From Escherichia phage EK99P-1: a DNA stretch of 44,332 nt. The stretch lies in the sequence record NC_024783.1. The stretch is one strand, 5' to 3'. The position numbers and the translations under genes were made by a program. Below, piece by piece: positions 2,024-41,778 of this stretch. Numbering within the stretch: the first letter of the stretch is position 1; every line of letters starts with the position of its first letter. Under the pieces are notes generated by a model. The model had not been told where the DNA came from and searched no databases. It worked only from the letters and a program-made list of their open reading frames with translations.

Positions 2024-3544
2024 ATGACCGTTAACGTTGACAACCAGCACCCGCTCTATGCGCGCATCGCGCCAGAGTGGAAAATGATCCGTGATTGTGT
2101 GGCAGGGGAGCGCGCCGTGAAGGCGTGCGGCCCCTTGTACCTGCCTCATCCCGCCAGTGGCGACAACACTGACCCGAAAGCACGGGCGAGATATAAGGCG
2201 TATAAGCAACGCGCTGTATTCCTGAACGCCACCGCCCGCACACTTAACGCACTGTTAGGCGTTGCCTTCGCTAAACCGGTAAGTCTGGACCTTTCCGGGG
2301 CGATTGCGGACCTTATTGACGACGTAGACGGCAGTGGTATGCCGCTGCCGCAACTCCTGCGCGGTGCTATGTCGGAAGTGCTGCAATCAGGCCGTGCGGG
2401 CTTTATGGTGGACTACGATCGCCAGGCGCATTTTGATGAGCTGGGTAACGTAGTGCCGCAGACAGCCGCTGAGATGGCGTCACACCGCCCACTTATCCGC
2501 CTGTACACGGCAGAACAGATCATCAACTGGCGGCAGACCCACGGCGTAGATACGCTAATTGTGCTAAAGGAAACGGACGAAATCAGCACCGAAGACCCGG
2601 ACGACTTCGCAAACCACGAAGTAACAATATGGACCGAGCTTCGCATGATTAACGGTGCGGCACACGCCCGCCGCTGGTTTTATAACGCGGACACGTCCGA
2701 GGTGCAAATGGACTTGCCGCGTGGATTCACCCGCACCGACCTGGTGCCGCTGGTGGATGCCTCCGGTAAGGCACTGACTCAACTTCCGTTTTGCTGGTGT
2801 GGCGCGGTGGACAACAACGCGACGCCAGACGCCGCTCCGCTGGCAGATATCGCATCCATCAACATTAAGCACTACAACGCCGAAGCGGACGTCGCCGAGA
2901 TCGCGCACATCGTGGGCCAACCTACCCTGGTTGCGACGGGCTTGACTCAATCATGGGCGGACAAAAACCTGAAAGGCGGCATCGCGCTCGGAGCGACTAA
3001 GGGCGTTATTCTCGGTCAGAACATGGATGCTAAACTGATCCAGGCCGAGGAGCGCAACTTGTCTGTTGCACTGTGTGAGCGACGCGAATTGCAAATGGCT
3101 AAACTGGGCGCGGCCCTGGTTGAGAAGGGGACTGCACCTAAGACGGCAACCGAGGCGGCCTACGATGCGCAGACTGATAACAGTATCCTGTCGCTTATTG
3201 CCAGTAACGTTGAGAAGGCTTTCAACCGTGCGCTGCAAATCGTGCAGCTATTCACGGGGGACACCGCAGATCAACGTGTAACGCTGAATAAGTTCTACAC
3301 CGAGATCACGGTTGATGCACAGCTTATGACCGCGATGATGGCGGGTGTGCAGACGGGTACGGTCCGCCTGGCGGACTTCATCAAGTGGATGATGGCGCAG
3401 GGCGTCATCGACGACTCGCAAACCGTCGAGCAGGTTGAAGACGAATTGCGAAATCAGAATCCATTGCCTCAAATGTCCCCGGATGCGGTAGAATCTACCG
3501 AAGAAGACCCGGACAAGGTAGCGGACAATGGCGAAGACAATTAA
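2024..3544 (+). CDS. portal protein
   Basis: 506 aa, immediately downstream of terL, acidic C-terminus, RBS AAGGA before ATG. Confidence 0.8.
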   Translation: MTVNVDNQHPLYARIAPEWKMIRDCVAGERAVKACGPLYLPHPASGDNTDPKARARYKAYKQRAVFLNATARTLNALLGVAFAKPVSLDLSGAIADLIDDVDGSGMPLPQLLRGAMSEVLQSGRAGFMVDYDRQAHFDELGNVVPQTAAEMASHRPLIRLYTAEQIINWRQTHGVDTLIVLKETDEISTEDPDDFANHEVTIWTELRMINGAAHARRWFYNADTSEVQMDLPRGFTRTDLVPLVDASGKALTQLPFCWCGAVDNNATPDAAPLADIASINIKHYNAEADVAEIAHIVGQPTLVATGLTQSWADKNLKGGIALGATKGVILGQNMDAKLIQAEERNLSVALCERRELQMAKLGAALVEKGTAPKTATEAAYDAQTDNSILSLIASNVEKAFNRALQIVQLFTGDTADQRVTLNKFYTEITVDAQLMTAMMAGVQTGTVRLADFIKWMMAQGVIDDSQTVEQVEDELRNQNPLPQMSPDAVESTEEDPDKVADNGEDN

Positions 3545-11640: not shown

Positions 11641-11956
11641 CGAAGCGGGACAGGCGGGAAGTACCGTTTTGTCCCGCCTCTGTAAAACCGCATATCTAAT
11701 CACTTTCATTGCATAAACTCAAAGCGGGACAGGCGGGACGTCCCGTTTTGTCACGCCCTGTAAATGTGCATACCTATGCAGATTTCGTGCATAAACCAAA
11801 CGGGACAGAAAGCGGGACAAACAAGAGGCGGGACAAAGCGGGACAGCACCCCGTCCCAGCCAGTGCTGCCGCGGTTTTCAGCCGATCGGGACAGCGGGAC
11901 AGCACCCCAGTCTTTCAGACTAGACGGGGGTCAGTGGCCCCCCTCGTCTGAGACTG
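11641..11956 (+). repeat. GCGGGACA iteron region with terminal long hairpin (copy A, extended)
   Basis: About 10 GGGAC(A) units on one strand, several short GGGAC..GTCCC palindromes. The last 169 bp (11788-11956) are repeated at 39166-39334. Confidence 0.8.
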
Positions 11957-12024
11957 AATAAGGTTTGTTTTGAAATCGCTGATACAATATCCATCGGCAA
12001 CTGCATAAAAAAGGGGACTGCATA

Positions 12025-14667
12025 ATGGCAGATCAGGCAGCAGGCATCACGCTAAAGGCTGATGTTGCACAAATCAGAACGGCAAATACTGTGCTGGACT
12101 CCTTCGCACAGAAATCCGAGAACACAGAAAACAAGGTTAAGAAATTAAACGACACCCTCGGCAAATCCAAAAAGGTGACGAGTGACGCCGCGGGCGGAAT
12201 GGAGAAGCTGGCGACTGAATCGCAGCGCGCCGCCGATGGCATGACGAAACAGGAGCGACTTGCCAACAGGTTAGGCATGTCGACCAAAAACCTGGGCTTT
12301 GCCTCGCGTAACGCCGCATTCCAGTTACAGGATATCGCAGTTACGCTTGAGATGGGGATGCCTGTTCACCGCGTCATGCTTCAGCAGTTACCGCAGCTAA
12401 CTGGGGCGTTTGGCGGACTGGGAAACACGCTGCGTTATGTCGTCGGCACACTCGGCCCGTTAGGGATTGGCATCGCTGCATTAACGGCAACGCTCGGCGT
12501 AGGGGTGGCAATTACGACCCGCGCAGAGAACCAGGTGGCGGCGCTTAATAAGACGCTGGCGCTGTCCGGTAATATTTCAGGCCTGACAGCTAACCAGATC
12601 CTTGTGCTGTCCGAGAACGCCGAGCGCATGGGCGGGTCATTTCGCAAGACGCGTGACACAATCCAGGCGCTGGCGGCGGCGGGTGTGAAAGCGGGTGGTG
12701 ACTTTGGCGCATTGGCTAAGGTAGTGAATGACTTTGCGAAGGTGTCCAGCCAGCCGATCGAGGATGTGGTGGCGGCGGTGGCGAAGCTGTCAACCGACCC
12801 GGTAGGCGGCTTGCGCGCACTGGCGGATAAGTATCACGTCGTAAACGAAGCGCAGATCCAGCAGGTACAGTCGCTGGTTGATGCGGGTCGTGAGACAGAC
12901 GCAGTTGCGTTGGCTAACAAAACAGCCGCTGCGTCGTTCACCAGCATGACCAATGAGATCAAGGCGAACATGGGCACGCTTGAGCGGTCTATGAACGTCG
13001 TCACATCGGCAGCTAAATCGATGTGGGACGCTATCCTGGATGTGGGCCGCGCGCAGTCCTCCAATGAGTCCGAGATGAAAGCGCGCGAATCACTACAGCG
13101 CATGACCACGGCATACTATGCCGAGATGAAAGCGGTAAACGCTGCCGGTGGGGTAATGACCGAAGCGCAGAAAGCGCGTATTAACATGCTTTACAGCGAA
13201 CTGGTCGCCCAGGAAAAAGTAGTGGCGTCGCTCACCCTGCGTAACCGTGCGGAGCGAGACAACGCCCGCGCCGCGGACGAATCAGCAAAGGCGAACGAGG
13301 AGGCCAACCGCACCGCTCGCGACCGCGCCGCGTTCGAGAAGGAGTACGCAACTAACGCGAAGAAGCGCGCTGACGAGATCGCCCGCCTCAATTTGCTGAA
13401 TAAGCGCGGCGTTATCGACGAGAAAGAGCTTGCTGAGGCGGTGAAGCAGGTAAACGAGCGTTACAAAGACCCCGCCCCGAAGAAGGCCGCGGCTGTTCGC
13501 GTGGATGCCGGTATGAAAATGCTGGAAGTCGCACGGAGCGAACTGGCCCAGCTTCGAGAATCCGGCAAGCAGATCGAAGCCAACGCATCGACGCAGACCC
13601 GAACGCAACGCGCTCAAGCGGCCTTAAACAAGCTGATCGCGGATAATGAGCAGTTAATCGCCGCAAGCAAAGAAAGAGCGCTAACGGCAGCCGAAAAGCA
13701 GCAATTAGTCGAGTTCGGGCGCGTGAAGGAAGTCCGCGAGCAGATCGTCGAAGAAGCCAAATTGCTGGACGCGAAAGAGAAGCAGGTTAAGGCGCACGCG
13801 CAGATCGATGCCTTCGTTAAGAACCAGAACGCCGAACTAAAAGCCACCGCCGCGGGCTATGCCCTTTCCACTCGCGAAGCGGCAAACCTGCGCGAAGAAT
13901 TGCAGCTAATCGACCGCCTGAAGCGTGTAGGCGCTAACGATACCGATATCGACAAGGCGGTGTCTAAGCTGCGAGAAGTGCAGGAAGCACAGACCGGCGC
14001 TAACGCCTCGTTATGGGATGGATTCAGTCGCGGGCTTAAGGATAGCGTGGATGAGATGGGTAACGGATATACGCAGATGGCGTCTCTCACGAAATTCACA
14101 TTCAGCGCTATGCAGGACACGATGAACGAGTTTTTCGAGACTGGCAAGCTGAACGCAAAGGATATGGTTAAGTCCATCCTGAGCGAATTAATCAAGCTGG
14201 CTACCTCGCAGGCGTTCAAGTCCATCGTTAGCGCTTTCGGTGGTGACGGCGGCAAAAACGGATTGTTCGGCGCTATCTTCTCTGGCCTTACTAAGAATGC
14301 GGACGGCGGAGCGTACGCAGGAGGCAATCTCGCGGCCTATTCGGGGAAAGTGGTAAGCCAGCCTACCTTTTTCAGTTATGGCGTCCAGGCGTTCGCTAAG
14401 GGCGCTGGGTTGATGGGTGAGGCTGGACCCGAGGCCATCATGCCACTGAAGCGCGGGCCGGACGGGAAACTGGGCGTTGCCGCGTCTGGCGCAGGCGGTG
14501 GTATGGTCGTGACGACTAACGTTTACACGGGGACTGGTAAAACGGATACCAGTGTCAGCGGGCCGGACCCCCGTACTGCGCAAGCGTTCGGCAAGCAAAT
14601 AACCGAGGCGGTGAAGGCCGAGATCGTGAAAGCTACGAAACCGGGTGGAGTACTTTACAAACGATGA
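12025..14667 (+). CDS. tail tape measure protein
   Basis: 880 aa, Ala- and coiled-coil-rich with a Gly-rich C-terminal part, directly after the G/GT chaperone genes. Confidence 0.85.
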   Translation: MADQAAGITLKADVAQIRTANTVLDSFAQKSENTENKVKKLNDTLGKSKKVTSDAAGGMEKLATESQRAADGMTKQERLANRLGMSTKNLGFASRNAAFQLQDIAVTLEMGMPVHRVMLQQLPQLTGAFGGLGNTLRYVVGTLGPLGIGIAALTATLGVGVAITTRAENQVAALNKTLALSGNISGLTANQILVLSENAERMGGSFRKTRDTIQALAAAGVKAGGDFGALAKVVNDFAKVSSQPIEDVVAAVAKLSTDPVGGLRALADKYHVVNEAQIQQVQSLVDAGRETDAVALANKTAAASFTSMTNEIKANMGTLERSMNVVTSAAKSMWDAILDVGRAQSSNESEMKARESLQRMTTAYYAEMKAVNAAGGVMTEAQKARINMLYSELVAQEKVVASLTLRNRAERDNARAADESAKANEEANRTARDRAAFEKEYATNAKKRADEIARLNLLNKRGVIDEKELAEAVKQVNERYKDPAPKKAAAVRVDAGMKMLEVARSELAQLRESGKQIEANASTQTRTQRAQAALNKLIADNEQLIAASKERALTAAEKQQLVEFGRVKEVREQIVEEAKLLDAKEKQVKAHAQIDAFVKNQNAELKATAAGYALSTREAANLREELQLIDRLKRVGANDTDIDKAVSKLREVQEAQTGANASLWDGFSRGLKDSVDEMGNGYTQMASLTKFTFSAMQDTMNEFFETGKLNAKDMVKSILSELIKLATSQAFKSIVSAFGGDGGKNGLFGAIFSGLTKNADGGAYAGGNLAAYSGKVVSQPTFFSYGVQAFAKGAGLMGEAGPEAIMPLKRGPDGKLGVAASGAGGGMVVTTNVYTGTGKTDTSVSGPDPRTAQAFGKQITEAVKAEIVKATKPGGVLYKR

Positions 14668-15303: not shown

Positions 15304-16088
15304 ATAAACTTTATCGCGAGGCGACGCGCTTTGACCCATCGGGCCGCGTTCGCCTGATTCACATTGACGCGCAGGACGTGGAACCAGGCGACGGCGCGAT
15401 CGGAGCGGGCCATCACTATTTTCATTACTGCTTTATTCCACACACTGCCGAGGATATTGCTGCCGCTGGTGGTGACGAGGATAAGCTAAAACCCAAATCA
15501 ATCTTCTTCGGCGGGCAGGAGTTCGAATTTTGGCCCTTCGATCTGTCTGGACTTAACTTCTCCACCTCGGCGGCAGCAGAACCGCAACTAACAATCGTCG
15601 ATATTGGCGGCATAATAACCCGGCTGTCGCTGAACCACGACCAGCTACTGGGAGCGAAGGTTGAGATCATTGATACGTTCGCGAAGTTCCTGGACAACGG
15701 GACAGATCCAGACCCGACGCAGAAACGAGTTCAGGAGTATTACATCGACTCGCAGGTCGGGCGCAATCCTGGCAAGCAAATCACCTTCGCACTATCCTCC
15801 CCCGCGGATATGGAAGGGCAGGTCGTCCCCCGTCGCCAAATCATGAATATGTGCGAATGGGCGCTCAACGGGAAGTACGCCAGCGGGGACGGGTGCACCT
15901 GGAACCTTGCGAAGCCCGGTATCAAGTATTACGACGAGCGAGGTAATGAAGTCATTGCGATGAATATGGACCGATGCGGCGGCTGTTTGTCCGACTGCTA
16001 TCTTCGTTTTGGGCAAGGGCTTGCGGACCCTAAAGCGGCGGTGTTGGACTTCGGTGGTTTTCCTGGGTCCAAATTGATTAAGGGGTAG
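15300..16088 (+). CDS. minor tail protein L-like (Fe-S cluster type)
   Basis: 262 aa. C-terminal cysteines (CTWN..., RCGGCLSDC) match the pattern of lambda gpL-type tail tip proteins. Confidence 0.65.
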   Translation: MNKLYREATRFDPSGRVRLIHIDAQDVEPGDGAIGAGHHYFHYCFIPHTAEDIAAAGGDEDKLKPKSIFFGGQEFEFWPFDLSGLNFSTSAAAEPQLTIVDIGGIITRLSLNHDQLLGAKVEIIDTFAKFLDNGTDPDPTQKRVQEYYIDSQVGRNPGKQITFALSSPADMEGQVVPRRQIMNMCEWALNGKYASGDGCTWNLAKPGIKYYDERGNEVIAMNMDRCGGCLSDCYLRFGQGLADPKAAVLDFGGFPGSKLIKG

Positions 16089-16090
16089 CC

Positions 16091-16831
16091 ATGTTAACGA
16101 AAAAGGTTAAAAGCGATATCGCCGCACACGTTGCGGCGTGTCTGCCGGAAGAAGCCTGCGGCCTGGTTGTCATGGTTGGTCGTAAGCAAGTATTCGTCCC
16201 ATGTCTGAACGTATTCGAAGACCCGACCGGCGTGCGCTCACGCAAGGACGCGTTTACTATTAGTGATATGGCCTGGATGGATGCCGAGGATATGGGCGAC
16301 GTCGTGCGCGTAGTCCATTCGCATCCGGGCCAGCGAGAGCTTACCCCCTCACTGGGCGACGTTAATGGATGCAACGGCAGCGGCGTAGTCTGGACCATCA
16401 CTAACGAATATGGCGACTTTATCGAGATCGACCCTGAAGACCCGCCGCTGGTAGGCCGCCGATTTGTTCTCGGAATTACGGATTGTTACGGCCTCGTAAT
16501 GGACTGGCACAAAAAGCAGGGAGTAAACCTGCCAGACTTCCGCGTGCCGTATAACTGGTGGGAGACAGGCGAAAACCTGTATATGGACAATTGGTACGGT
16601 GCGGGCTTCAGGGAATGCGAGGAGAATACGCCTGGGGCGATGGTCATCATGCAGATTAGCGCGCCTGTGCCAAACCACGCAGGGATATTCCTTCCGGGCA
16701 ACCAACTACTACACCATATCTACGGCAGTCTGTCGAGCGTAGTCCCCTTCCGGGCAGGATTTTTCCGCGACAATGTGGTTAAATGGGTCCGTCATAAAGA
16801 CCTACCGGGGGATATCACAAAATGGCAATGA
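16091..16831 (+). CDS. tail assembly protein K-like (JAB/MPN plus NlpC/P60-like)
   Basis: 246 aa with a JAMM-like HSHPGQRELTPSLGD motif and downstream Cys/His residues. Confidence 0.7.
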   Translation: MLTKKVKSDIAAHVAACLPEEACGLVVMVGRKQVFVPCLNVFEDPTGVRSRKDAFTISDMAWMDAEDMGDVVRVVHSHPGQRELTPSLGDVNGCNGSGVVWTITNEYGDFIEIDPEDPPLVGRRFVLGITDCYGLVMDWHKKQGVNLPDFRVPYNWWETGENLYMDNWYGAGFRECEENTPGAMVIMQISAPVPNHAGIFLPGNQLLHHIYGSLSSVVPFRAGFFRDNVVKWVRHKDLPGDITKWQ

Positions 16832-32605: not shown

Positions 32606-33331
32606 TTAACGGCGGCGACGTTTACGCGGTGCTTTGTCTTCGTCGTCGTCGTCCTCATCTTCGTCATCGCGTGGCTTACGACGTTTACGAGGTTTTTTAT
32701 CTTCATCATCGTCATCGCGACGTTTTGACTTTTTGGACTTGCGCGGCTTGTCATCTTCATCATCGTCGCCCAGGTCCTCGTCTGAGCAAGAAGACCCGCC
32801 ACCTCCGAAGGCTTCGCCGTCTTCACGGAATCGCAGACCCAGCAAGCCAGCCCCGAGGCCCTTGCCGTTGGTATTGTTCCATGCCCAAATATCAAGGGAC
32901 ACGTTGCAATAACAACCGGAGTAGATCTCCTGGCCTTCAATCTCGTCGCCTTCTACGGTCAGACCTTGTTCAGTCTGCTTCTCGCCGAGTGACGTTTGAA
33001 TGATAGGCTGTTTGAACGATTTGGCGTTGATATACAACATGCCTTCGAATTCTTCTGTCACTTCGTCGCGCTCGTCACCGTCGCGAACTGCGCATTCCTT
33101 AGAATCCTGGGCGTAGTGGCGGTCCATCCACTTATCGGCATTCTTCTCGGATTTCAGCTTATCGGTGAGCACTGCGCGCGCTGCCGCTTCCACTTTGTCC
33201 ACCTGCGGATCTTCTTTATCCAGAAGAATCACGGCACGGTATGCCGGTTTTTGTCCATCCTGTTTAGGGGTATCACGTTCCCAGATTTTCAGGAAGCATA
33301 CGCGCACATTTTTCAGGTTGACTTTAGCCAT
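32606..33331 (-). CDS. ssDNA-binding-like protein (DUF2815-like) with hyper-charged C-terminal tail
   Basis: Start taken at the ATG at 33331 (MAKVNLKNV, RBS GAGGA). C-terminal ~60 aa alternate D/E blocks with K/R blocks. Confidence 0.5.
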   Translation of the reverse strand: MAKVNLKNVRVCFLKIWERDTPKQDGQKPAYRAVILLDKEDPQVDKVEAAARAVLTDKLKSEKNADKWMDRHYAQDSKECAVRDGDERDEVTEEFEGMLYINAKSFKQPIIQTSLGEKQTEQGLTVEGDEIEGQEIYSGCYCNVSLDIWAWNNTNGKGLGAGLLGLRFREDGEAFGGGGSSCSDEDLGDDDEDDKPRKSKKSKRRDDDDEDKKPRKRRKPRDDEDEDDDDEDKAPRKRRRR

Positions 33332-33421
33332 TTTCCAATTCCTCATTTTCACATGTATCGGGGTTATTGGAAGCCACCCCGTTCGGCTTGGTTGCTAATC
33401 TACTTGGTTGCGCCTGAGCGG

Positions 33422-35575: not shown

Positions 35576-36061
35576 TTAATCTTCCAGTTCGAAATAAGTT
35601 TCGACGATTTCTTTAAGTTCTGTGTGGAAGTCTTCGACGTCTTCATCTTCCAGCTTGGCGATTGATTTGATCTCGAACGATTCCAGCAGGTCGTCAAATT
35701 CGTCGTTCGCGTCGTCGTCGTCACCACCAGCGATAATAGCGGCATATTGTTTGATTTCGTCGCGCATCTCAGCCAGCGGATCGGCATCTTTCTTGCCTTT
35801 GCCTTTCGCCGGGGCTTTTTTACCCTTAGCTGGTTTTACGTCATCAGCGTCATCGTCGTCGTCATCTTCTACGACTTCTTTTTTGGCTTTCGCCGGAGCT
35901 TCGTCGTCAGCGTCGTCATCTTCTACGACTTCTTTTTTCGCCTTAGACGGCTTCTTGTCTTCCTGCTTGCCAACGGCAGCGCCAACGGTTTCATAATGCT
36001 TAGCGATGGTTTCCAGTGCTACTACGCCGCGAGTAATCAGGTTTACGATTTGTTCAAACAT
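35576..36061 (-). CDS. highly acidic repeat protein (possible DNA mimic / anti-restriction candidate)
   Basis: 161 aa, runs of D/E, internal duplication AKKEVVEDDDADDEAPAK / AKKEVVEDDDDDDADDVKPAK. First gene downstream of the leftward early promoter. Confidence 0.5.
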   Translation of the reverse strand: MFEQIVNLITRGVVALETIAKHYETVGAAVGKQEDKKPSKAKKEVVEDDDADDEAPAKAKKEVVEDDDDDDADDVKPAKGKKAPAKGKGKKDADPLAEMRDEIKQYAAIIAGGDDDDANDEFDDLLESFEIKSIAKLEDEDVEDFHTELKEIVETYFELED

Positions 36062-36406: not shown

Positions 36407-36452
36407 TTGACACCCTGCTGTTTTAGGTGTAGTTTCGTTGGTCATTAACCAA
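36407..36452 (+). promoter_or_regulatory. rightward early promoter (PR-like) with operator palindrome
   Basis: TTGACA (36407-36412), 17-nt spacer, TAGTTT (36430-36435), then TTGGT-catta-ACCAA (36438-36452) before the RBS. Confidence 0.55.
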
Positions 36453-36466
36453 CCGGGGACAGAAAA

Positions 36467-36796
36467 ATGAATATCAACGACGCAATCGAAATGTTAACTA
36501 AGACTGTTTGCAGTGAAACAAGCCGGTCCTGGGCGTATACCGATGCCGTGGGGGCGGTGCTATTTGAAATCGAACGCCTGCGACTCACCGAAAAAGAATT
36601 GCGCGCGAAGCTGGAATTACTCAACGGTACGGCAGCCAGCAAGCTGCAAAAGCACAATGAAGAAATGGAAGAATACAAAAAGCAGGTTATCCGTCTACGT
36701 GAGGAAGGTAAATCCTGGGCTATGATCGCCGAGCTAACCGGAATCAACCAGAGCACTGTGCGCTCCTGGGTACGCAATAATAAAACTTCCAAATAA
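36467..36796 (+). CDS. small HTH DNA-binding protein (candidate early regulator)
   Basis: 109 aa. C-terminal helix-turn-helix GKSWAMIAELTGINQSTVRSWV. First gene after PR. Confidence 0.55.
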   Translation: MNINDAIEMLTKTVCSETSRSWAYTDAVGAVLFEIERLRLTEKELRAKLELLNGTAASKLQKHNEEMEEYKKQVIRLREEGKSWAMIAELTGINQSTVRSWVRNNKTSK

Positions 36797-36806
36797 GGCT
36801 ACGACC

Positions 36807-39071
36807 ATGAGTTTAATTAAATTCGCCGTAACAAGACCCGCTAAAAAAGGCGAAAAAGCCAGGGCGGAAAACCTCCAGATGACCACCGATGAATTTTTCG
36901 AATTTATCAAAGATGCGAAAGAAATCTCATCGGTGCATATCAACAAGACGGAGGATAAAGCCGAGTATGCGCGCCGCAAGCGTAAGGCCGATGGCATCGT
37001 GGCATATACCAGTGACGGACTTCGCCGCAAGACCAGTGCGGTGGACCGCTCGATCCTGTTCTTTGATATTGACCGCACCGACACCCGCACCCTACGCCGC
37101 TGCCGTAAGGCGTTCATTGACGCGGGTCTGGAACACGTATTTCACACCACAACCGGCGACCGTCACCCACTGAAAGGCGGCACGCGTTGCGCCCGTTTCC
37201 TGGTGTTAACTGACAAGCCTGTACCGGCGGAAGACCTGGGCCGCGCCCAGTATGCCTTGTTAGCCCAACTGGGTCTGTCCGATGTGGACTTCGACGATTG
37301 CACGAAAGACACAAACCGCCTTATGTACCTGCCACACCAGCAATCTGTCATTAAATGCCACTACGGCAAGCGCGCCCGCGTCCGTCGTCTGCTCCGCCTG
37401 GCGGACAGGCTGGGAGTTGAGAAAGAGGAAGTGCGCCGCGAACTAACCCAGGGTGATGACGGCATGGCGGACGGTATTCTGGATTGGTGCTTCCAGGCAG
37501 GATTCGAACCGCTGTCGTCCGGTCGTGGTTATGAAGTTCCATGCCCGAACGAACATCTGCATAGTGGCGAAGGGTCCACCGCTATCATGGTTAAGGATGG
37601 CGAGATCCGTTTCAAGTGTATGCACACCGGCAACGAGTGTTGCTCGGAACTGAATAGACACCAGCACCTGGCGCTACGTCTCATCGGGATACCGGACCAC
37701 CTGAACGTCGAGCCGCACAACATGTCCCGTAAGCAAATCGCCGCCATCCTCCCAGGGCTGGACGACGAGGAAGTCGAATCCTTATATGAACATATTGTTG
37801 ATGCGGTTGGCGACGGCGAAGAATACGGCGTGTGCACCGATGCGGATCTGGATAACGAGCCGGTTGCGCTGTTCAGCAAGCACGACCCGATTATCGAGGG
37901 GTTGATTAACTTTAAATCAACTTGGTATATGGCTGGCGAGTCGAACATCGGTAAGTCTTTCTACGTGCTGGGGCAAATGGGTGCGGTTGCCGCGGGGATT
38001 CCGTTCGGTGGCGCGAAGGTAGTCCAGTCTCATTGCTTCTATTTCGATGCGGAAGGTGGCGAAGCCTCTAACCAGCGTAAGGAAGCATTGCAGATCAAAT
38101 ATGAGCACGATCTCGACAAGCTGCACATTATCGACCTGCAAACTCGCGGCTGGGATATCACCAGCAAATCCGGCTTGCGTGAAGTTATCAGCTTTATCAA
38201 CCGCACCGCTAACGGCGAACCGGTTGGCCTGGTGGCATTCGACTCCCTCAACCAGACTGTTGCGTTGCGGTCCGCCGATTCTAAACCGTTCGACGAGAAC
38301 AACGCCAGCGATATGGGCGAAGTGGTCAAAGCGCTGAAGGCCATTGCGGAAAATACAGGCGGCAGTGCGGGCGTCATCCACCACCCGGCGAAAGGTGCAA
38401 ACGGCAGCAGATCTCCCCGTGGGTCCGGCGCGCTGCATGGTGCTGTCGATTCCGCGTTCTTCCTGGAACAGCCGGACGACAATCAGCCTGGTCAATTGAA
38501 CCTGTATCACGAAAAGGCACGTAACGGCATCAAGCAAGCGCCGCGCGGCTTCGTCCTGCTCAAGTGCAAAGTTAAGGTAGATCTCCGCAAGTCCGAGGCG
38601 TTCGAATCGCACCAGTCCACCAGCACCGGGCCTGACTTCGGCGATGTGGTTGCCGGTTGGGACGTCAAGCCGATCGCATCCACGCCACGCGACGAGACTC
38701 TGTATCTCGTACCGGTCGCCCTGGCACCGTTCGCCATCGAACAGGCGAAGGCGGCGGGCAAAGCAGCAGTTAAGGACGAGAATGCCGCAGGACCGCGCAA
38801 CGAAAAAGAGAAAGTGCTTTATGCGGCGCTGGAAAAACTGATGGAAGATAACCCGGACCATACCGGATTCAGTAAATCGGCAATCGTCCGCCAGGCGGGA
38901 TTGGCAAAAGGTGGCACATCGACGAAGGCAATAGACGATATGGTGGAGCGCGGCGTGCTAGGTTTTTATACAGATCCGCATACCGGGGCCATCTATGGGT
39001 CGTCGAATATCGTCATAAAAACGAATATACCCATCACGCTTTCGGCGACCGATGACGACCTTAAAGATTAA
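36807..39071 (+). CDS. DNA primase / replicative ATPase (primase-helicase-like)
   Basis: 754 aa. N-terminal primase-like region and central P-loop GESNIGKS. Large early replication protein. Confidence 0.55.
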   Translation: MSLIKFAVTRPAKKGEKARAENLQMTTDEFFEFIKDAKEISSVHINKTEDKAEYARRKRKADGIVAYTSDGLRRKTSAVDRSILFFDIDRTDTRTLRRCRKAFIDAGLEHVFHTTTGDRHPLKGGTRCARFLVLTDKPVPAEDLGRAQYALLAQLGLSDVDFDDCTKDTNRLMYLPHQQSVIKCHYGKRARVRRLLRLADRLGVEKEEVRRELTQGDDGMADGILDWCFQAGFEPLSSGRGYEVPCPNEHLHSGEGSTAIMVKDGEIRFKCMHTGNECCSELNRHQHLALRLIGIPDHLNVEPHNMSRKQIAAILPGLDDEEVESLYEHIVDAVGDGEEYGVCTDADLDNEPVALFSKHDPIIEGLINFKSTWYMAGESNIGKSFYVLGQMGAVAAGIPFGGAKVVQSHCFYFDAEGGEASNQRKEALQIKYEHDLDKLHIIDLQTRGWDITSKSGLREVISFINRTANGEPVGLVAFDSLNQTVALRSADSKPFDENNASDMGEVVKALKAIAENTGGSAGVIHHPAKGANGSRSPRGSGALHGAVDSAFFLEQPDDNQPGQLNLYHEKARNGIKQAPRGFVLLKCKVKVDLRKSEAFESHQSTSTGPDFGDVVAGWDVKPIASTPRDETLYLVPVALAPFAIEQAKAAGKAAVKDENAAGPRNEKEKVLYAALEKLMEDNPDHTGFSKSAIVRQAGLAKGGTSTKAIDDMVERGVLGFYTDPHTGAIYGSSNIVIKTNIPITLSATDDDLKD

Positions 39072-39165
39072 ATTTTGCGCGCATTGGTTGCCATTTTGGG
39101 TGTTTTTATCTGGTCGTATTGGTTGCCGTGTAGTGTAGATATAATGAATAGTTATGCAATAAAAC

Positions 39166-39334
39166 TGCATAAACCAAACGGGACAGAAAGCGGGACAAAC
39201 AAGGGGCGGGACAAAGCGGGACAGCACCCCCGTCCCGCCCCGGATGGCGCGGCCTGGAGAGGAGCGGGACAGCGGGACAGCACCCCAGTCTTTCAGACTA
39301 GACGGGGGTCAGCGGCCCCCCTCGTCTGAGACTG
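39166..39334 (+). repeat. GCGGGACA iteron plus long hairpin element (copy B)
   Basis: 169 bp directly after the primase gene. Both flanks near-identical to 11788-11956, 34-bp central core divergent, one loop substitution in the hairpin. Confidence 0.8.
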
Positions 39335-39493
39335 CATAAAATCCGGGATTGCAAAATACACGGCAGCATGTTGCGGATTGCGGTCGTCGCTGAACTAGGC
39401 AACCAATGCGAGATGCGGAATGGTGGGTGGAAAATGCAGTTTGCAGTCACAGCAGATAGCGATCAACTTTTTCATGCGCGTGATTAATATTGG

Positions 39494-39535
39494 TTGCATT
39501 CAATCCGGCACCCGGCTATATTGGTTGCACACCAA
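39494..39535 (+). promoter_or_regulatory. sigma70-like promoter with downstream palindrome
   Basis: ATTGGTTGCAT (-35 TTGCAT, 39494-39499), 17-nt spacer, TATATT (39517-39522), then TTGGT-tgcac-ACCAA (39521-39535) and RBS GAGGA. Confidence 0.5.
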
Positions 39536-41435: not shown

Positions 41436-41453
41436 TTATGCAAGCGTGATATA

Positions 41454-41487
41454 GTCCCAGTGAGCTAAAACTTACTGGGACTTTTTT
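41454..41487 (+). terminator. rho-independent terminator abutting the holin start codon
   Basis: GTCCCAGT-12 nt-ACTGGGAC followed by TTTTTT, then the ATG at 41488. Confidence 0.5.
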
Positions 41488-41778
41488 ATGGATAAGCTAA
41501 ACGAGTGGTTATTCGCCATTGCGTGTCTTGCTGGTGGCTTCGTAGGCGCACGCATTCATGGCGAGGCAACGAAAGGGCCGTTGAACTTCGTTTTATATGT
41601 CGTAGTTGGATTCCTGTGCGCCATATTTGGTGCGCCAGCTATCGCCGAGTGGGCTGGTTTATCTGGCGAGCGCACTGTCGCCGGTTTGGGCTTCGTAACT
41701 GCTATCTTCTGGATGCCAATAGCCGCCCGGATCAGGGAGACTATTGAGTCGTTCCGACTTCCGGGGGGCGCAAAATGA
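41488..41778 (+). CDS. holin (putative)
   Basis: 96 aa with about three TM segments, immediately upstream of a second membrane protein and the endolysin. Confidence 0.55.
   Translation: MDKLNEWLFAIACLAGGFVGARIHGEATKGPLNFVLYVVVGFLCAIFGAPAIAEWAGLSGERTVAGLGFVTAIFWMPIAARIRETIESFRLPGGAK

What the first reader, a model, noticed from the sequence alone, without database searches (positions are those of the whole stretch)
11788..11956. A 169-bp element with phased GCGGGACA iterons and a long hairpin occurs twice, 27 kb apart
11788-11956 and 39166-39334 are direct repeats of identical length. The first ~65 bp carry four GCGGGACA units at 11-16 bp spacing plus a short GGGAC..GTCCC hairpin. The last ~70 bp carry two more units and a ~49-nt imperfect hairpin (CAGTCT/AGACTG + CAGAC/GTCTG + GGGGG/CCCCC). 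These flanks are near-identical, while a 34-bp core differs completely. The one substitution inside the hairpin falls in the loop. This pattern implies selection on a cis-acting element. One-strand, helical-turn-phased iterons fit a multimeric DNA-binding protein array (origin, packaging-site or partition-like site) or a structured RNA embedded in two operons.
Basis: seen in the sequence. Interest (0 to 1): 0.8.

Follow-up and report, generated by a model that had tools for sequence, protein, structure and literature searches.

The report
Duplicated origin-like repeat array in coliphage
A 174-base non-coding element made of CGGGACA repeats plus a long hairpin occurs twice in every Dhillonvirus coliphage, and it most likely serves as the DNA landing site (replication origin plus a duplicated second site) for the phage's own helicase-primase, though no experiment has tested this.

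Summary
Window 11788-11961 and 39166-39339 are a 174-nt direct repeat (about 90% identical). Each copy has six CGGGACA units on one strand, an inverted GTCCC and a 49-nt imperfect hairpin. The ~34-nt core is specific to each copy.

All 157 Dhillonvirus genomes in GenBank carry it, and complete genomes have two places each. The Sodalis phage SO-1 record already annotates both places as 'region A/B', so the repeat itself is not a new sighting.

The copy after the helicase-primase gene is ancestral. Cornellvirus, phiEap-2 and AH01 have one homologous array at that place. Their unit differs (GGGGAGA or CGGACA), but the spacing pattern and the hairpins are kept.

The helicase-primase ends in a predicted winged-helix domain. 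This is its most variable part, and its similarity between lineages follows the unit type. The window's third most AT-rich 40-mer abuts copy B.

RNA tests were negative: no Rfam hit, no covariation, and both strands fold equally well.

Best reading (confidence about 0.45): iteron-type origin DNA for the helicase-primase, with copy A as a P4 crr-like second site. The co-variation is confounded by linkage and mosaicism, and nothing has been tested experimentally. Interest is moderate.

The parts
39166..39339 (+). Copy B of the element, at the ancestral place in the 480-bp gap after the helicase-primase gene. Six CGGGACA units, an inverted GTCCCG, a copy-specific core, the 49-nt hairpin and a terminal TGCATAA.
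   Evidence: Homologous single arrays lie at the same place in VSiA, phiEap-2, AH01 and L229.
11788..11961 (+). Copy A of the element, in the 385-bp gap between the tail chaperone ORF (ends 11640) and the tape measure gene (12025). This is a Dhillonvirus-specific duplicate.
   Evidence: VSiA, phiEap-2 and AH01 have no second array.
11643..11757 (+). Two degenerate upstream modules (11643-11678 and 11722-11757). Each follows a (T/C)GCATAA word and consists of unit-unit-inverted unit(s): GCGGGACAGGCGGGAc|GTCCCGTTTTGTCcCGCC.
   Evidence: the repeat finder family D6; alignment of region A in 8 genomes.
11800..11858 (+). 5' unit block of copy A: units at 11800, 11812, 11828 and 11838, plus inverted GTCCCA at 11853. 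The third or fourth unit can pair with the inverted unit.
   Evidence: In LM40P1, Ioannina and KarlBarth the fourth unit is the palindrome GCGGGACGTCCCGC.
39178..39237 (+). 5' unit block of copy B: units at 39178, 39190, 39206 and 39216, plus inverted GTCCCG at 39232. GGGGCGGGAC...GTCCCGCCCC can form a 10-bp stem.
11886..11901 (+). Two adjacent units of copy A (TCGGGACA, GCGGGACA) just before the hairpin.
   Evidence: The second unit shifts by 1 nt in some genomes, with a compensating 1-nt change after it.
39264..39279 (+). Two adjacent units of copy B.
11908..11956 (+). 49-nt imperfect hairpin of copy A: CAGTCT / CAGAC / GGGGG arms built from AGTCT, AGACT, AGAC and GTCT words, with a variable apical loop.
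39286..39334 (+). 49-nt imperfect hairpin of copy B.
39134..39173 (.). AT-rich stretch abutting the units of copy B (78% A+T), the third most AT-rich 40-mer of the window. It contains the conserved GTGAATAGTTATGCA block and the inverted repeat TTATGCA-N7-TGCATAA (39152-39172). It is a candidate DNA-unwinding element.
36807..39071 (+). Helicase-primase gene (754 aa), the proposed trans-acting partner. The helicase core is RSF1010 RepA-like.
   Evidence: Pfam AAA_25; phrog_3228; Foldseek hits 1nlf/1g8y, E about 5e-10.
38784..39026 (+). Codons for residues ~660-740 of the helicase-primase. This is a predicted winged-helix domain and the most variable part of the protein between lineages.
12000..12026 (+). 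ACTGCATAAAAAAGGGGACTGCATAAT just before the tape measure start codon. It is related to 39331-39357, which follows copy B directly, so copy A carries a ~45-nt insertion between the hairpin and this block.
   Evidence: the repeat finder family D19

Best explanation
The element works as double-stranded DNA. It is an array of binding sites ('iterons', core GGAC with degenerate AGAC forms, in both orientations) for the C-terminal winged-helix domain of the phage's own helicase-primase.

Copy B, immediately after that gene and next to a very AT-rich stretch, is the ancestral replication origin. The proposed steps are inferred, not shown:
1. The winged-helix domains of several helicase-primase molecules occupy the six direct units and the inverted unit.
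2. The neighbouring AT-rich DNA, and/or the imperfect 49-nt palindrome, opens.
3. The RepA-like helicase ring loads there and the N-terminal primase primes.

Copy A is a Dhillonvirus-specific duplicate of the site array and hairpin. It lacks the strongly AT-rich block. It may act as a second origin or as a cis partner of copy B, as crr does for ori in satellite phage P4.

The two copies are kept alike because both must fit the same protein, helped by gene conversion.
For: Shown by tools:
1. The units are confined to the two non-coding regions and are far above chance.
2. A homologous array sits right after the helicase-primase gene in four further lineages. The spacing pattern is similar (about 12, 16, 10), an inverted unit and a G-rich/C-rich hairpin are kept, but the word differs: CGGGACA (Dhillonvirus, L229), CGGACA (phiEap-2, AH01), GGGGAGA (VSiA).
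3. More distant lineages have other 6-9-mers in both orientations at that place.
4. In each lineage the hairpin arms are built from unit-like words: AGAC/GTCT where the unit is GGAC, and GGAG/CTCC where it is GGAGA.
6. This domain is the most divergent part of the protein, and pairs with the same unit have the highest C-terminal identity even when their N-termini do not. phiEap-2/AH01: 54% C-terminal (76% N-terminal). AH01/VSiA: 40% (82%). L230/L232: 57% (63%). L230/L234: 44% (64%).
7. The small XRE HTH encoded upstream tracks unit type less well.
8. The third most AT-rich 40-mer of the window abuts copy B.
9. Flanks of A and B evolve in concert: 89.9% identity within a genome against 85.9% between genomes, reached by 21 of 5000 permutations.
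10. Stems are conserved as sequence, not by covariation, and both strands fold equally well. This fits DNA recognition better than an RNA fold.

Published analogue: the pRN1 origin is a stem-loop 54 bp downstream of its primase-helicase gene, which also carries a winged helix, and similar stem-loops lie 3' of replication genes in some phages (PMC4234260).
Against: - There is no experimental evidence of binding or of initiation.
- The co-variation is confounded. The C-terminal codons lie within 100-400 bp of the element, so one recombination block could carry both.
- In a genome-wide phiEap-2/AH01/VSiA scan, the strongest 'phiEap-2 = AH01' windows were in tail genes. The helicase-primase C-terminus (difference about 13 points) was not among the top 12 of 378 windows.
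- The XRE gene shows the same direction of signal in that trio.
- Unit spacing is irregular, unlike classical 11- or 22-bp iterons.
- Copy A has only moderately AT-rich flanks.
- The GC-skew minimum lies near 36 kb and follows gene orientation, so it neither supports nor locates an origin.
- The strict same-strand orientation of the direct units, always the sense strand, and the 58-nt T-free stretch are not explained by a duplex-binding model.
- AH01 and VSiA have 94-97% identical N-terminal domains but different hairpin sequences, so the hairpin is not simply a primase-domain recognition site.
Confidence: 0.45

Rival explanations
1. Transcriptional control region. The units are operators or enhancer sites for a phage regulator, either the small HTH protein encoded at 36467-36796 or another factor. 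This regulator would switch the rightward transcription unit from early genes (HTH, helicase-primase) to late genes at copy B, and would tune expression of the tape measure and distal tail genes at copy A.
For: - Copy B lies between the early genes and a likely promoter (TTGCAT-17-TATATT, 39494-39522) in a gap full of conserved motifs, including ATTGGTTGC and the TTATGCA-N7-TGCATAA palindrome.
- Copy A follows two terminator-like modules in the tail operon.
- In the phiEap-2/AH01/VSiA trio the XRE protein is also most similar between the two phages that share a unit: 51-53% against 38-42%.
Against: - No sigma-70-like promoter was found around copy A.
- The TATAAT upstream of copy B is not conserved.
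- The upstream regulator belongs to different families in lineages that share the architecture: HTH_23/sigma-70 region 4-like in Dhillonvirus and L229, XRE in the others.
- XRE identity is 52% between phiEap-2 and L230 although their units differ.
- The recurrent promoter-associated word of this phage is ATTGGTTGC, not CGGGACA.
Confidence: 0.2
2. Cis-acting RNA. The plus-strand transcript of the element folds (5' hairpin plus 49-nt hairpin) and/or presents its GGA-containing units to an RNA-binding protein or to RNA polymerase. It would then act as an antitermination, processing or stability signal in two operons, in the manner of put/nut sites or a protein-titrating RNA.
For: - Both copies, and all homologous arrays, lie on the sense strand of the flanking genes.
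- The 5' block is purine-rich with no U over 58 nt.
- Hairpins are kept across genera, with completely different arm sequences in VSiA (CTCCT/AGGAG instead of AGTCT/AGACT).
- A U.G pair occurs in the apical stem.
Against: - No Rfam family matches at E<1.
- Whole-element z-scores are only -1.7 and -2.3.
- The covariation term is +0.49 and stems are almost invariant.
- The minus strand folds as well or better: the 5' part is more stable on the minus strand in 29 of 33 copies, and AH01 gives -34.8 (minus strand) against -26.5 kcal/mol (plus strand).
- Inverted copies of the unit are conserved, and on RNA these would read as a different word.
- More distant lineages use units in both orientations.
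Confidence: 0.15
3. Packaging recognition site (pac-like). The terminase small subunit would bind the repeated words and cut nearby, as in the P1 pac site with its hexamers on both sides of the cut.
For: - The layout of 4 + 2 words around a variable centre in about 170 bp resembles P1 pac (recalled from memory).
- Several assemblies start or end at the element.
Against: - Assembly breaks are expected at any 174-nt repeat.
- In related genera the single array lies after the helicase-primase gene, 4-6 kb from the terminase genes.
- PhageTerm analyses report headful packaging for Opt-212 and a cos end ATCTTAAGGG for EE09, and neither links packaging to this element (PMC9022532, PMC10673088).
- Two same-sense pac sites 27 kb apart in a 44-kb headful genome have no precedent that I know of.
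Confidence: 0.05
4. Functionless duplicated spacer DNA or a selfish repeat, kept similar only by gene conversion.
For: Concerted evolution of the flanks; a tandem extra copy in the unverified TH11 record.
Against: - It is present at the same two places in all 157 GenBank records and in metagenome contigs.
- It is absent from bacterial genomes.
- Its architecture is kept across genera whose helicase-primase is about 45% identical.
- The flanks are more conserved than synonymous sites.
Confidence: 0.05

Closest known systems
Satellite phage P4 ori / crr with the alpha protein (details recalled from memory; not verified in the paper library)
   Same: Two separated cis regions carry the same short repeated words. 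The initiator is a single polypeptide combining primase, helicase and a C-terminal winged-helix DNA-binding domain.
   Different: P4 alpha has a superfamily-3 helicase, whereas here the core is RSF1010 RepA-like. The distance is 4.5 kb in P4 and 27 kb (17 kb the other way round) here. Binding and a cis requirement are shown for P4 and untested here. Only Dhillonvirus has the second copy.
pRN1-type origin: stem-loop just downstream of the primase-helicase gene orf904 (PMC4234260)
   Same: A small regulator gene is followed by a primase-helicase gene with a winged helix, then by a conserved non-coding region with a stem-loop. The authors report similar stem-loops 3' of replication genes in phages.
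   Different: The pRN1 stem-loop is about 100 nt, variable in sequence and without an iteron array. Here the hairpin is 49 nt, nearly invariant, and preceded by six repeated words. The helicase class also differs.
RSF1010/IncQ oriV (iterons, AT-rich region, ssiA/ssiB hairpins; RepC, RepA, RepB') (recalled from memory)
   Same: It combines iterons, an AT-rich stretch and sequence-conserved hairpins. The helicase fold of the phage protein is closest to RSF1010 RepA.
   Different: In RSF1010 three separate proteins bind iterons, unwind and prime, and the two ssi hairpins lie on opposite strands. Here there is one fused protein and one hairpin orientation. AH01 and VSiA have near-identical primase domains but different hairpins, so a simple ssi analogy does not hold.
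Plasmid prophage P1 incC / repA / incA (recalled from memory)
   Same: An iteron array lies directly downstream of the initiator gene, and a second array could titrate or pair with the first.
   Different: P1 iterons are 19 bp and regularly spaced. P1 RepA is not a helicase-primase. A control function by handcuffing is untested here.
HK022 put / lambda nut sites (recalled from memory)
   Same: Two copies of a hairpin-containing element lie in two transcription units on the sense strand.
   Different: Those sites are promoter-proximal RNAs whose structure matters. Here there is no covariation, no strand preference in folding, and no conserved promoter directly upstream.

Membership tests
Iteron-type replication origin | Cluster of repeated short words (initiator binding sites) in a non-coding region | tested here: met
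   Six direct units plus one inverted unit per copy. The word is enriched 7-fold and confined to the two regions.
Iteron-type replication origin | Adjacent AT-rich DNA-unwinding stretch | tested here: inconclusive
   Copy B abuts the third most AT-rich 40-mer of the window (78% A+T). Copy A has only 62-70% A+T flanks.
Iteron-type replication origin | Regular, helically phased spacing of the repeats | tested here: not met
   Spacings are 12, 16, 10, 48 and 8 nt. The same irregular pattern recurs in other genera.
Iteron-type replication origin | An initiator protein binds the repeats | tested here: inconclusive
   Predicted winged helix at the C-terminus of the helicase-primase. Its similarity follows unit type, but this is confounded by linkage and mosaicism. 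No binding assay is possible with these tools.
Iteron-type replication origin | Replication starts there | not testable with these tools
   GC skew follows gene orientation and does not locate an origin.
P4 ori/crr-type two-site origin | Two separated cis regions sharing the same repeated words | tested here: met
   Copies A and B have near-identical flanks, in all 157 Dhillonvirus records.
P4 ori/crr-type two-site origin | Initiator combines primase, SF3 helicase and a C-terminal winged helix | tested here: not met
   A winged helix is predicted, but the helicase core is RecA-fold and RepA-like, not SF3.
P4 ori/crr-type two-site origin | Both sites are required in cis for replication | not testable with these tools
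   Needs deletion genetics. Related genera manage with one copy.
pRN1-type stem-loop origin | Conserved stem-loop within about 100 bp downstream of the primase-helicase gene | tested here: met
   For copy B only. The element starts 95 nt after the stop codon, and a hairpin is present in Dhillonvirus, phiEap-2, AH01 and VSiA. Copy A is not next to a replication gene.
Structured cis-acting RNA (put/nut-like, or any Rfam family) | Match to a curated RNA family | tested here: not met
   No Rfam hit at E<1 in either copy.
Structured cis-acting RNA (put/nut-like, or any Rfam family) | Base pairs supported by compensatory changes and a strand-specific fold | tested here: not met
   Covariation term +0.49, with only 2 of 18 pairs showing double changes, both next to the loop. 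The plus and minus strands fold equally well.
pac site (P1-like) | Located in or next to the terminase genes, with virion DNA ends mapping to it | tested here: not met
   Location: about 5 kb (copy B) and 11 kb (copy A) from terS at 56-628. End mapping is not testable here, and published PhageTerm results do not point to the element (PMC9022532, PMC10673088).

The most novel reading that the evidence does not exclude
Dhillonviruses use a two-site origin. A second helicase-primase landing pad (copy A) was duplicated into the middle of the tail operon and is needed in cis. It would act either as a P4 crr-like partner that loops to copy B, or as a second start site that couples DNA replication to expression of the tape measure and distal tail genes. 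The winged-helix domain and the unit word would then be a swappable specificity pair that defines replication 'incompatibility groups' among these phages.
Probability: 0.2. Interest if true: 0.6.

Novelty: new variant of a known kind. Interest (0 to 1): 0.45.

Why it matters
Dhillonviruses are among the most often isolated virulent coliphages (157 GenBank records; members of the BASEL collection), yet I found no mapped origin or cis-acting replication signal for them or for the related Cornellvirus group.

If the reading is right, it gives three things:
- A concrete, testable origin at 39.17-39.34 kb.
- A candidate initiator domain (residues ~660-740 of the helicase-primase).
- A natural set of matched word/domain variants (CGGGACA, CGGACA, GGGGAGA and others) for studying how initiator specificity changes.

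There are practical points too. The 174-nt repeat breaks or mis-joins short-read assemblies of these phages. Anyone engineering them should avoid deleting either copy blindly.

If the reading is wrong and the element is an RNA or a transcriptional switch, it is still the most conserved non-coding feature of the genus and deserves a deletion test.

Tried and rejected
- **Rfam, whole window at E<=1:** only an unrelated sub-threshold NsiR1-like terminator at 41437.
- **RNA fold significance and strand test:** weak z-scores and no plus-strand advantage.
- **RNAalifold on 12 hairpin variants including phiEap-2 and AH01:** stems invariant, no useful covariation. MAFFT misaligned the 3' arm of the two distant sequences, so I did not push count of structure pairs.
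- **Coding potential:** ORFs over the two copies are in different frames, and orthologues differ by 1-nt indels. Rejected.
- **Host-derived repeat:** no exact match in 185,579 bacterial and archaeal genomes.
- **Collection scans:** the 15-mer TGAATAGTTATGCAA and the gapped pattern AGTCTT..CAGACT..AGACT gave mostly chance hits. After filtering, only Dhillonvirus and phiEap-2 remained.
- **Jerseyvirus and Kagunavirus:** these have a different gene layout after the helicase-primase, with no homologous array.
- **GC skew:** follows gene orientation and is uninformative.
- **Sigma-70 promoter and terminator scans:** nothing above the shuffled expectation around either copy. The TATAAT at 39140 is not conserved.
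- **CsrA-sponge, Shine-Dalgarno-like, RfaH ops, PhoB box, Chi and CRISPR-repeat-mimic ideas:** considered from memory and dropped, because the word differs between genera or does not fit the consensus.
- **Genome-wide test of whether the winged helix is the best co-varying segment:** it is not.
- **SO-1 annotation:** the full text of the depositors' note ('possible ...') could not be retrieved, and no paper on SO-1's regions A/B was found in the library.

Full report

Yes. Window 11788-11961 and 39166-39339 are the longest direct repeat in the window: 174 nt, 89% ungapped and 90.3% by BLAST.

Each copy starts with TGCATAAACCAAA. It then carries four CGGGACA units (A: 11800, 11812, 11828, 11838; B: 39178, 39190, 39206, 39216) and an inverted GTCCC(A/G) (11853; 39232). 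A ~34-nt core follows, then two adjacent units (11886, 11894; 39264, 39272), a 49-nt imperfect hairpin (11908-11956; 39286-39334) and GACTG(A/C)ATAA.

The hairpins of the two copies differ by one base, in the predicted loop. GCGGGACA occurs 16 times against 2.2 expected, with 0 of 100 shuffles reaching 16. CGGGACA occurs 23 times against 6.4 expected, and 15 of the 23 lie in the two non-coding regions.

- Start-to-start spacings are 12, 16, 10, 48 and 8 nt, so the units are not helically phased.
- The core is copy-specific rather than unrelated. A-A identity is 91%, B-B 75% and A-B 56%.
- Upstream of copy A lie two more degenerate modules (11643-11678, 11722-11757), each made of unit-unit-inverted unit.

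Both copies also contain a 58-nt stretch without a single T.

**2. Context**

The window is a Dhillonvirus, an HK578/SO-1-like virulent coliphage. Copy A lies in a 385-bp gap between the DUF1799 tail chaperone ORF and the tape measure gene. Copy B lies in a 480-bp gap after the 754-aa helicase-primase gene. Both are on the sense strand.

All 157 Dhillonvirus records in the phage collection hold the element, and complete genomes have two places. Metagenome contigs of 44-45 kb also mostly carry two. No bacterial genome has it.

The GenBank record of Sodalis phage SO-1 (2009) already annotates 'region A' and 'region B' as repeat regions similar to each other, with a note 'possible ...' that I could not read to the end. 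So the two-copy arrangement is not a new sighting. I found no paper in the library that analyses it.

**3. Selection and concerted evolution**

Across 18 copies from 9 genomes, 65-67% of flank columns are invariant, against 32% in the core. For comparison, 38-52% of third codon positions are invariant in the neighbouring genes across the same 9 genomes.

In the flanks, A and B of one genome are more alike (89.9%) than A and B of different genomes (85.9%). Only 21 of 5000 permutations reach the observed value. Spacing variants of the last two units are often shared by both copies of a genome. The two copies therefore evolve in concert, through gene conversion and/or a shared trans-acting partner.

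The element is not coding. ORFs over the two copies are in different frames, and orthologues differ by 1-nt indels.

**4. The key comparative result**

The element is not confined to Dhillonvirus. A homologous array sits directly after the helicase-primase gene (protein about 45% identical) in these phages:
- Cornellvirus VSiA: unit GGGGGAGA five times plus inverted TCTCCCCC.
- Enterobacter phage phiEap-2 and Pantoea phage AH01: unit CGGACA, then ...AGTCT-loop-AGACT, a G-rich/C-rich hairpin, AGACT and TGCATAA.
- A metagenomic lineage with 68% protein identity: unit CGGGACA.

The spacing pattern (about 12, 16, 10), the inverted unit and the hairpin are kept while the word changes. The hairpin arms are built from unit-like words in each lineage: AGAC/GTCT with GGAC units, and GGAG/CTCC with GGAGA units.

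These genomes have only one array. So copy B is the ancestral place, and copy A is a Dhillonvirus-specific duplicate.

More distant helicase-primase lineages carry other 6-9-mers in both orientations in the same gap: TTGCGAGT, TTCCGCACA and GGGGATC. Jerseyvirus and Kagunavirus have a different layout.

**5. A candidate partner**

This domain is the most divergent part of the protein. In a 12-lineage matrix, pairs with the same unit have the highest C-terminal identity even when their N-termini are not the closest:

| Pair | C-terminal identity | N-terminal identity | Same unit? |
|---|---|---|---|
| phiEap-2 / AH01 | 54% | 76% | yes |
| phiEap-2 / VSiA | 41% | 82% | no |
| AH01 / VSiA | 40% | 82% | no |
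| L230 / L232 | 57% | 63% | yes |
| L230 / L234 | 44% | 64% | no |
| L231 / L233 | 53% | 75% | yes (GGGAT-type) |

The start of the predicted recognition helix is group-specific. The small XRE regulator upstream tracks unit type less well.

The caveat is important. The C-terminal codons are physically next to the element. In a genome-wide scan of the phiEap-2/AH01/VSiA trio, the strongest 'phiEap-2 = AH01' windows were mosaic blocks in tail genes, and the helicase-primase C-terminus was not in the top 12 of 378 windows. The co-variation is therefore suggestive, not decisive.

**6. DNA or RNA?**

- No Rfam family matches.
- Whole-element folding z-scores are -1.7 and -2.3.
- Hairpin stems are almost invariant and the covariation term is +0.49.
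- The minus strand folds as well as or better than the plus strand.
- Conserved inverted copies of the unit make sense as the same site on duplex DNA, but would read as a different word on RNA.

In favour of RNA remain the constant sense-strand orientation and the T-free purine-rich block, which the DNA model does not explain.

**7. Other origin-like features**

The 40 nt abutting the units of copy B (39134-39173) are the third most AT-rich 40-mer of the window. They include a block, GTGAATAGTTATGCA, that is conserved across genera. Copy A has only moderately AT-rich flanks. GC skew follows gene orientation and does not help.

**8. Most likely mechanism (inferred)**

The units are iterons for the winged-helix domain of the helicase-primase. 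Copy B plus its AT-rich neighbour is the origin, where the protein assembles, opens the DNA, loads its helicase ring and primes.

The nearly invariant imperfect palindrome may be an extrusion or loading structure, as proposed for the stem-loop origin downstream of the pRN1 primase-helicase gene (PMC4234260).

Copy A is a second origin or a crr-like cis partner, as in P4 (recalled from memory). I put this reading at about 0.45.

Rivals:
- Operator/enhancer array for a transcription regulator: 0.2.
- Cis-acting RNA: 0.15.
- pac site: 0.05. It is disfavoured by location and by published PhageTerm results (PMC9022532, PMC10673088).
- Functionless repeat: 0.05.

**9. Novelty and interest**

The repeat was already flagged in a database record. 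An iteron-plus-hairpin origin next to an initiator gene is a known kind of system.

What is new here:
- The link to a fused primase / RepA-like helicase / winged-helix protein.
- The word swapping between genera with a kept architecture.
- The finding that the second copy is a genus-specific duplication.

It is a good, testable lead for a much-isolated phage group, but it would not greatly surprise a specialist. Interest: 0.45.

Noticed in passing
window 39084-39091, 39119-39126, 39399-39406 (-), 39490-39497, 39521-39528; also 6044/6058 (-), 24944 (-)/24956 (+), 26853/26870 (-), 33388/33404 (+), 36268: A second repeated word, ATTGGTTGC (19 exact TTGGTTGC in the window), occurs mostly in pairs in non-coding gaps and is invariant among dhillonviruses. 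Cornellvirus and phiEap-2 use TGTTGGCTG at the equivalent places. It overlaps the -35 and +1 of a likely promoter, so it may be a promoter element or an operator.
   Followed up: partly
window 39143-39160; L028 37036-37075; L108 ~3016-3050; L109 ~3000-3035: The block GTGAATAGTTATGCA is conserved between genera whose proteins are about 45% identical. It occurs twice, 21 bp apart, in VSiA, phiEap-2 and AH01. It matches the E. coli ARG box consensus (recalled from memory) at 13 of 16 positions, and 21-bp spacing is the spacing of paired ARG boxes. This could be a host ArgR site or part of the unwinding element.
   Followed up: partly
window 39494-39522 and 36407-36435: Likely sigma-70 promoters: TTGCAT-17-TATATT just before ORF 39551, and TTGACA-17-TAGTTT before the HTH gene at 36467. 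The consensus scan tool did not list the first.
   Followed up: no
window 41437-41489 (+): A sub-threshold Rfam hit to NsiR1 (29 bits, gathering score 39). It is a GC-rich hairpin followed by a U tract, most simply an intrinsic terminator before the holin genes.
   Followed up: no
L020 (MT446389, TH11, unverified) 15561-15734 and 16076-16249: Region A is duplicated in tandem, 515 bp apart, in this record. It is either a real expansion or an assembly artefact at the repeat.
   Followed up: no
L023 (Maverick) record ends, L015 (UAE_MI-01) record ends; metagenome loci L253, L255, L256, L259: Many GenBank and metagenome assemblies of dhillonviruses start or end inside or next to the 174-nt repeat, and some contigs show a third partial copy at an end. 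This is probably the assembler breaking the circle at the repeat, not a genome terminus.
   Followed up: partly
window 11795-11852 and 39173-39231: A 58-nt stretch without a single T on the plus strand in both copies (A/G/C only). This strong strand asymmetry is not explained by my preferred duplex-DNA model.
   Followed up: no
window 11859-11886 vs L108 ~3118-3145, L109 ~3096-3122, L028 ~37130-37155: The core of copy A (GCTGCCGCGGTTTTCAGCCGAT) resembles the single-copy core of phiEap-2, AH01 and VSiA (CTGCCGCAAGGGTTTGCTGCCGAA) more than the core of copy B does. The core at the ancestral place may therefore have been replaced after the duplication.
   Followed up: no
window 32616-32767 and 35694-35950 (- strand genes): Runs of TCGTCGTC/TCATC repeats (families D2, D3, D5, D7). 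They encode Asp/Glu-rich tracts in the SSB-like protein (32606-33352) and in the 161-aa protein (35576-36061).
   Followed up: no
GenBank MG065648 (Campylobacter phage A144), OQ221563 (Acinetobacter phage NJ01): These records are labelled with non-enterobacterial hosts but are 96% identical to coliphage dhillonviruses over the element or the helicase-primase. The host labels are probably wrong, or the samples were contaminated.
   Followed up: no
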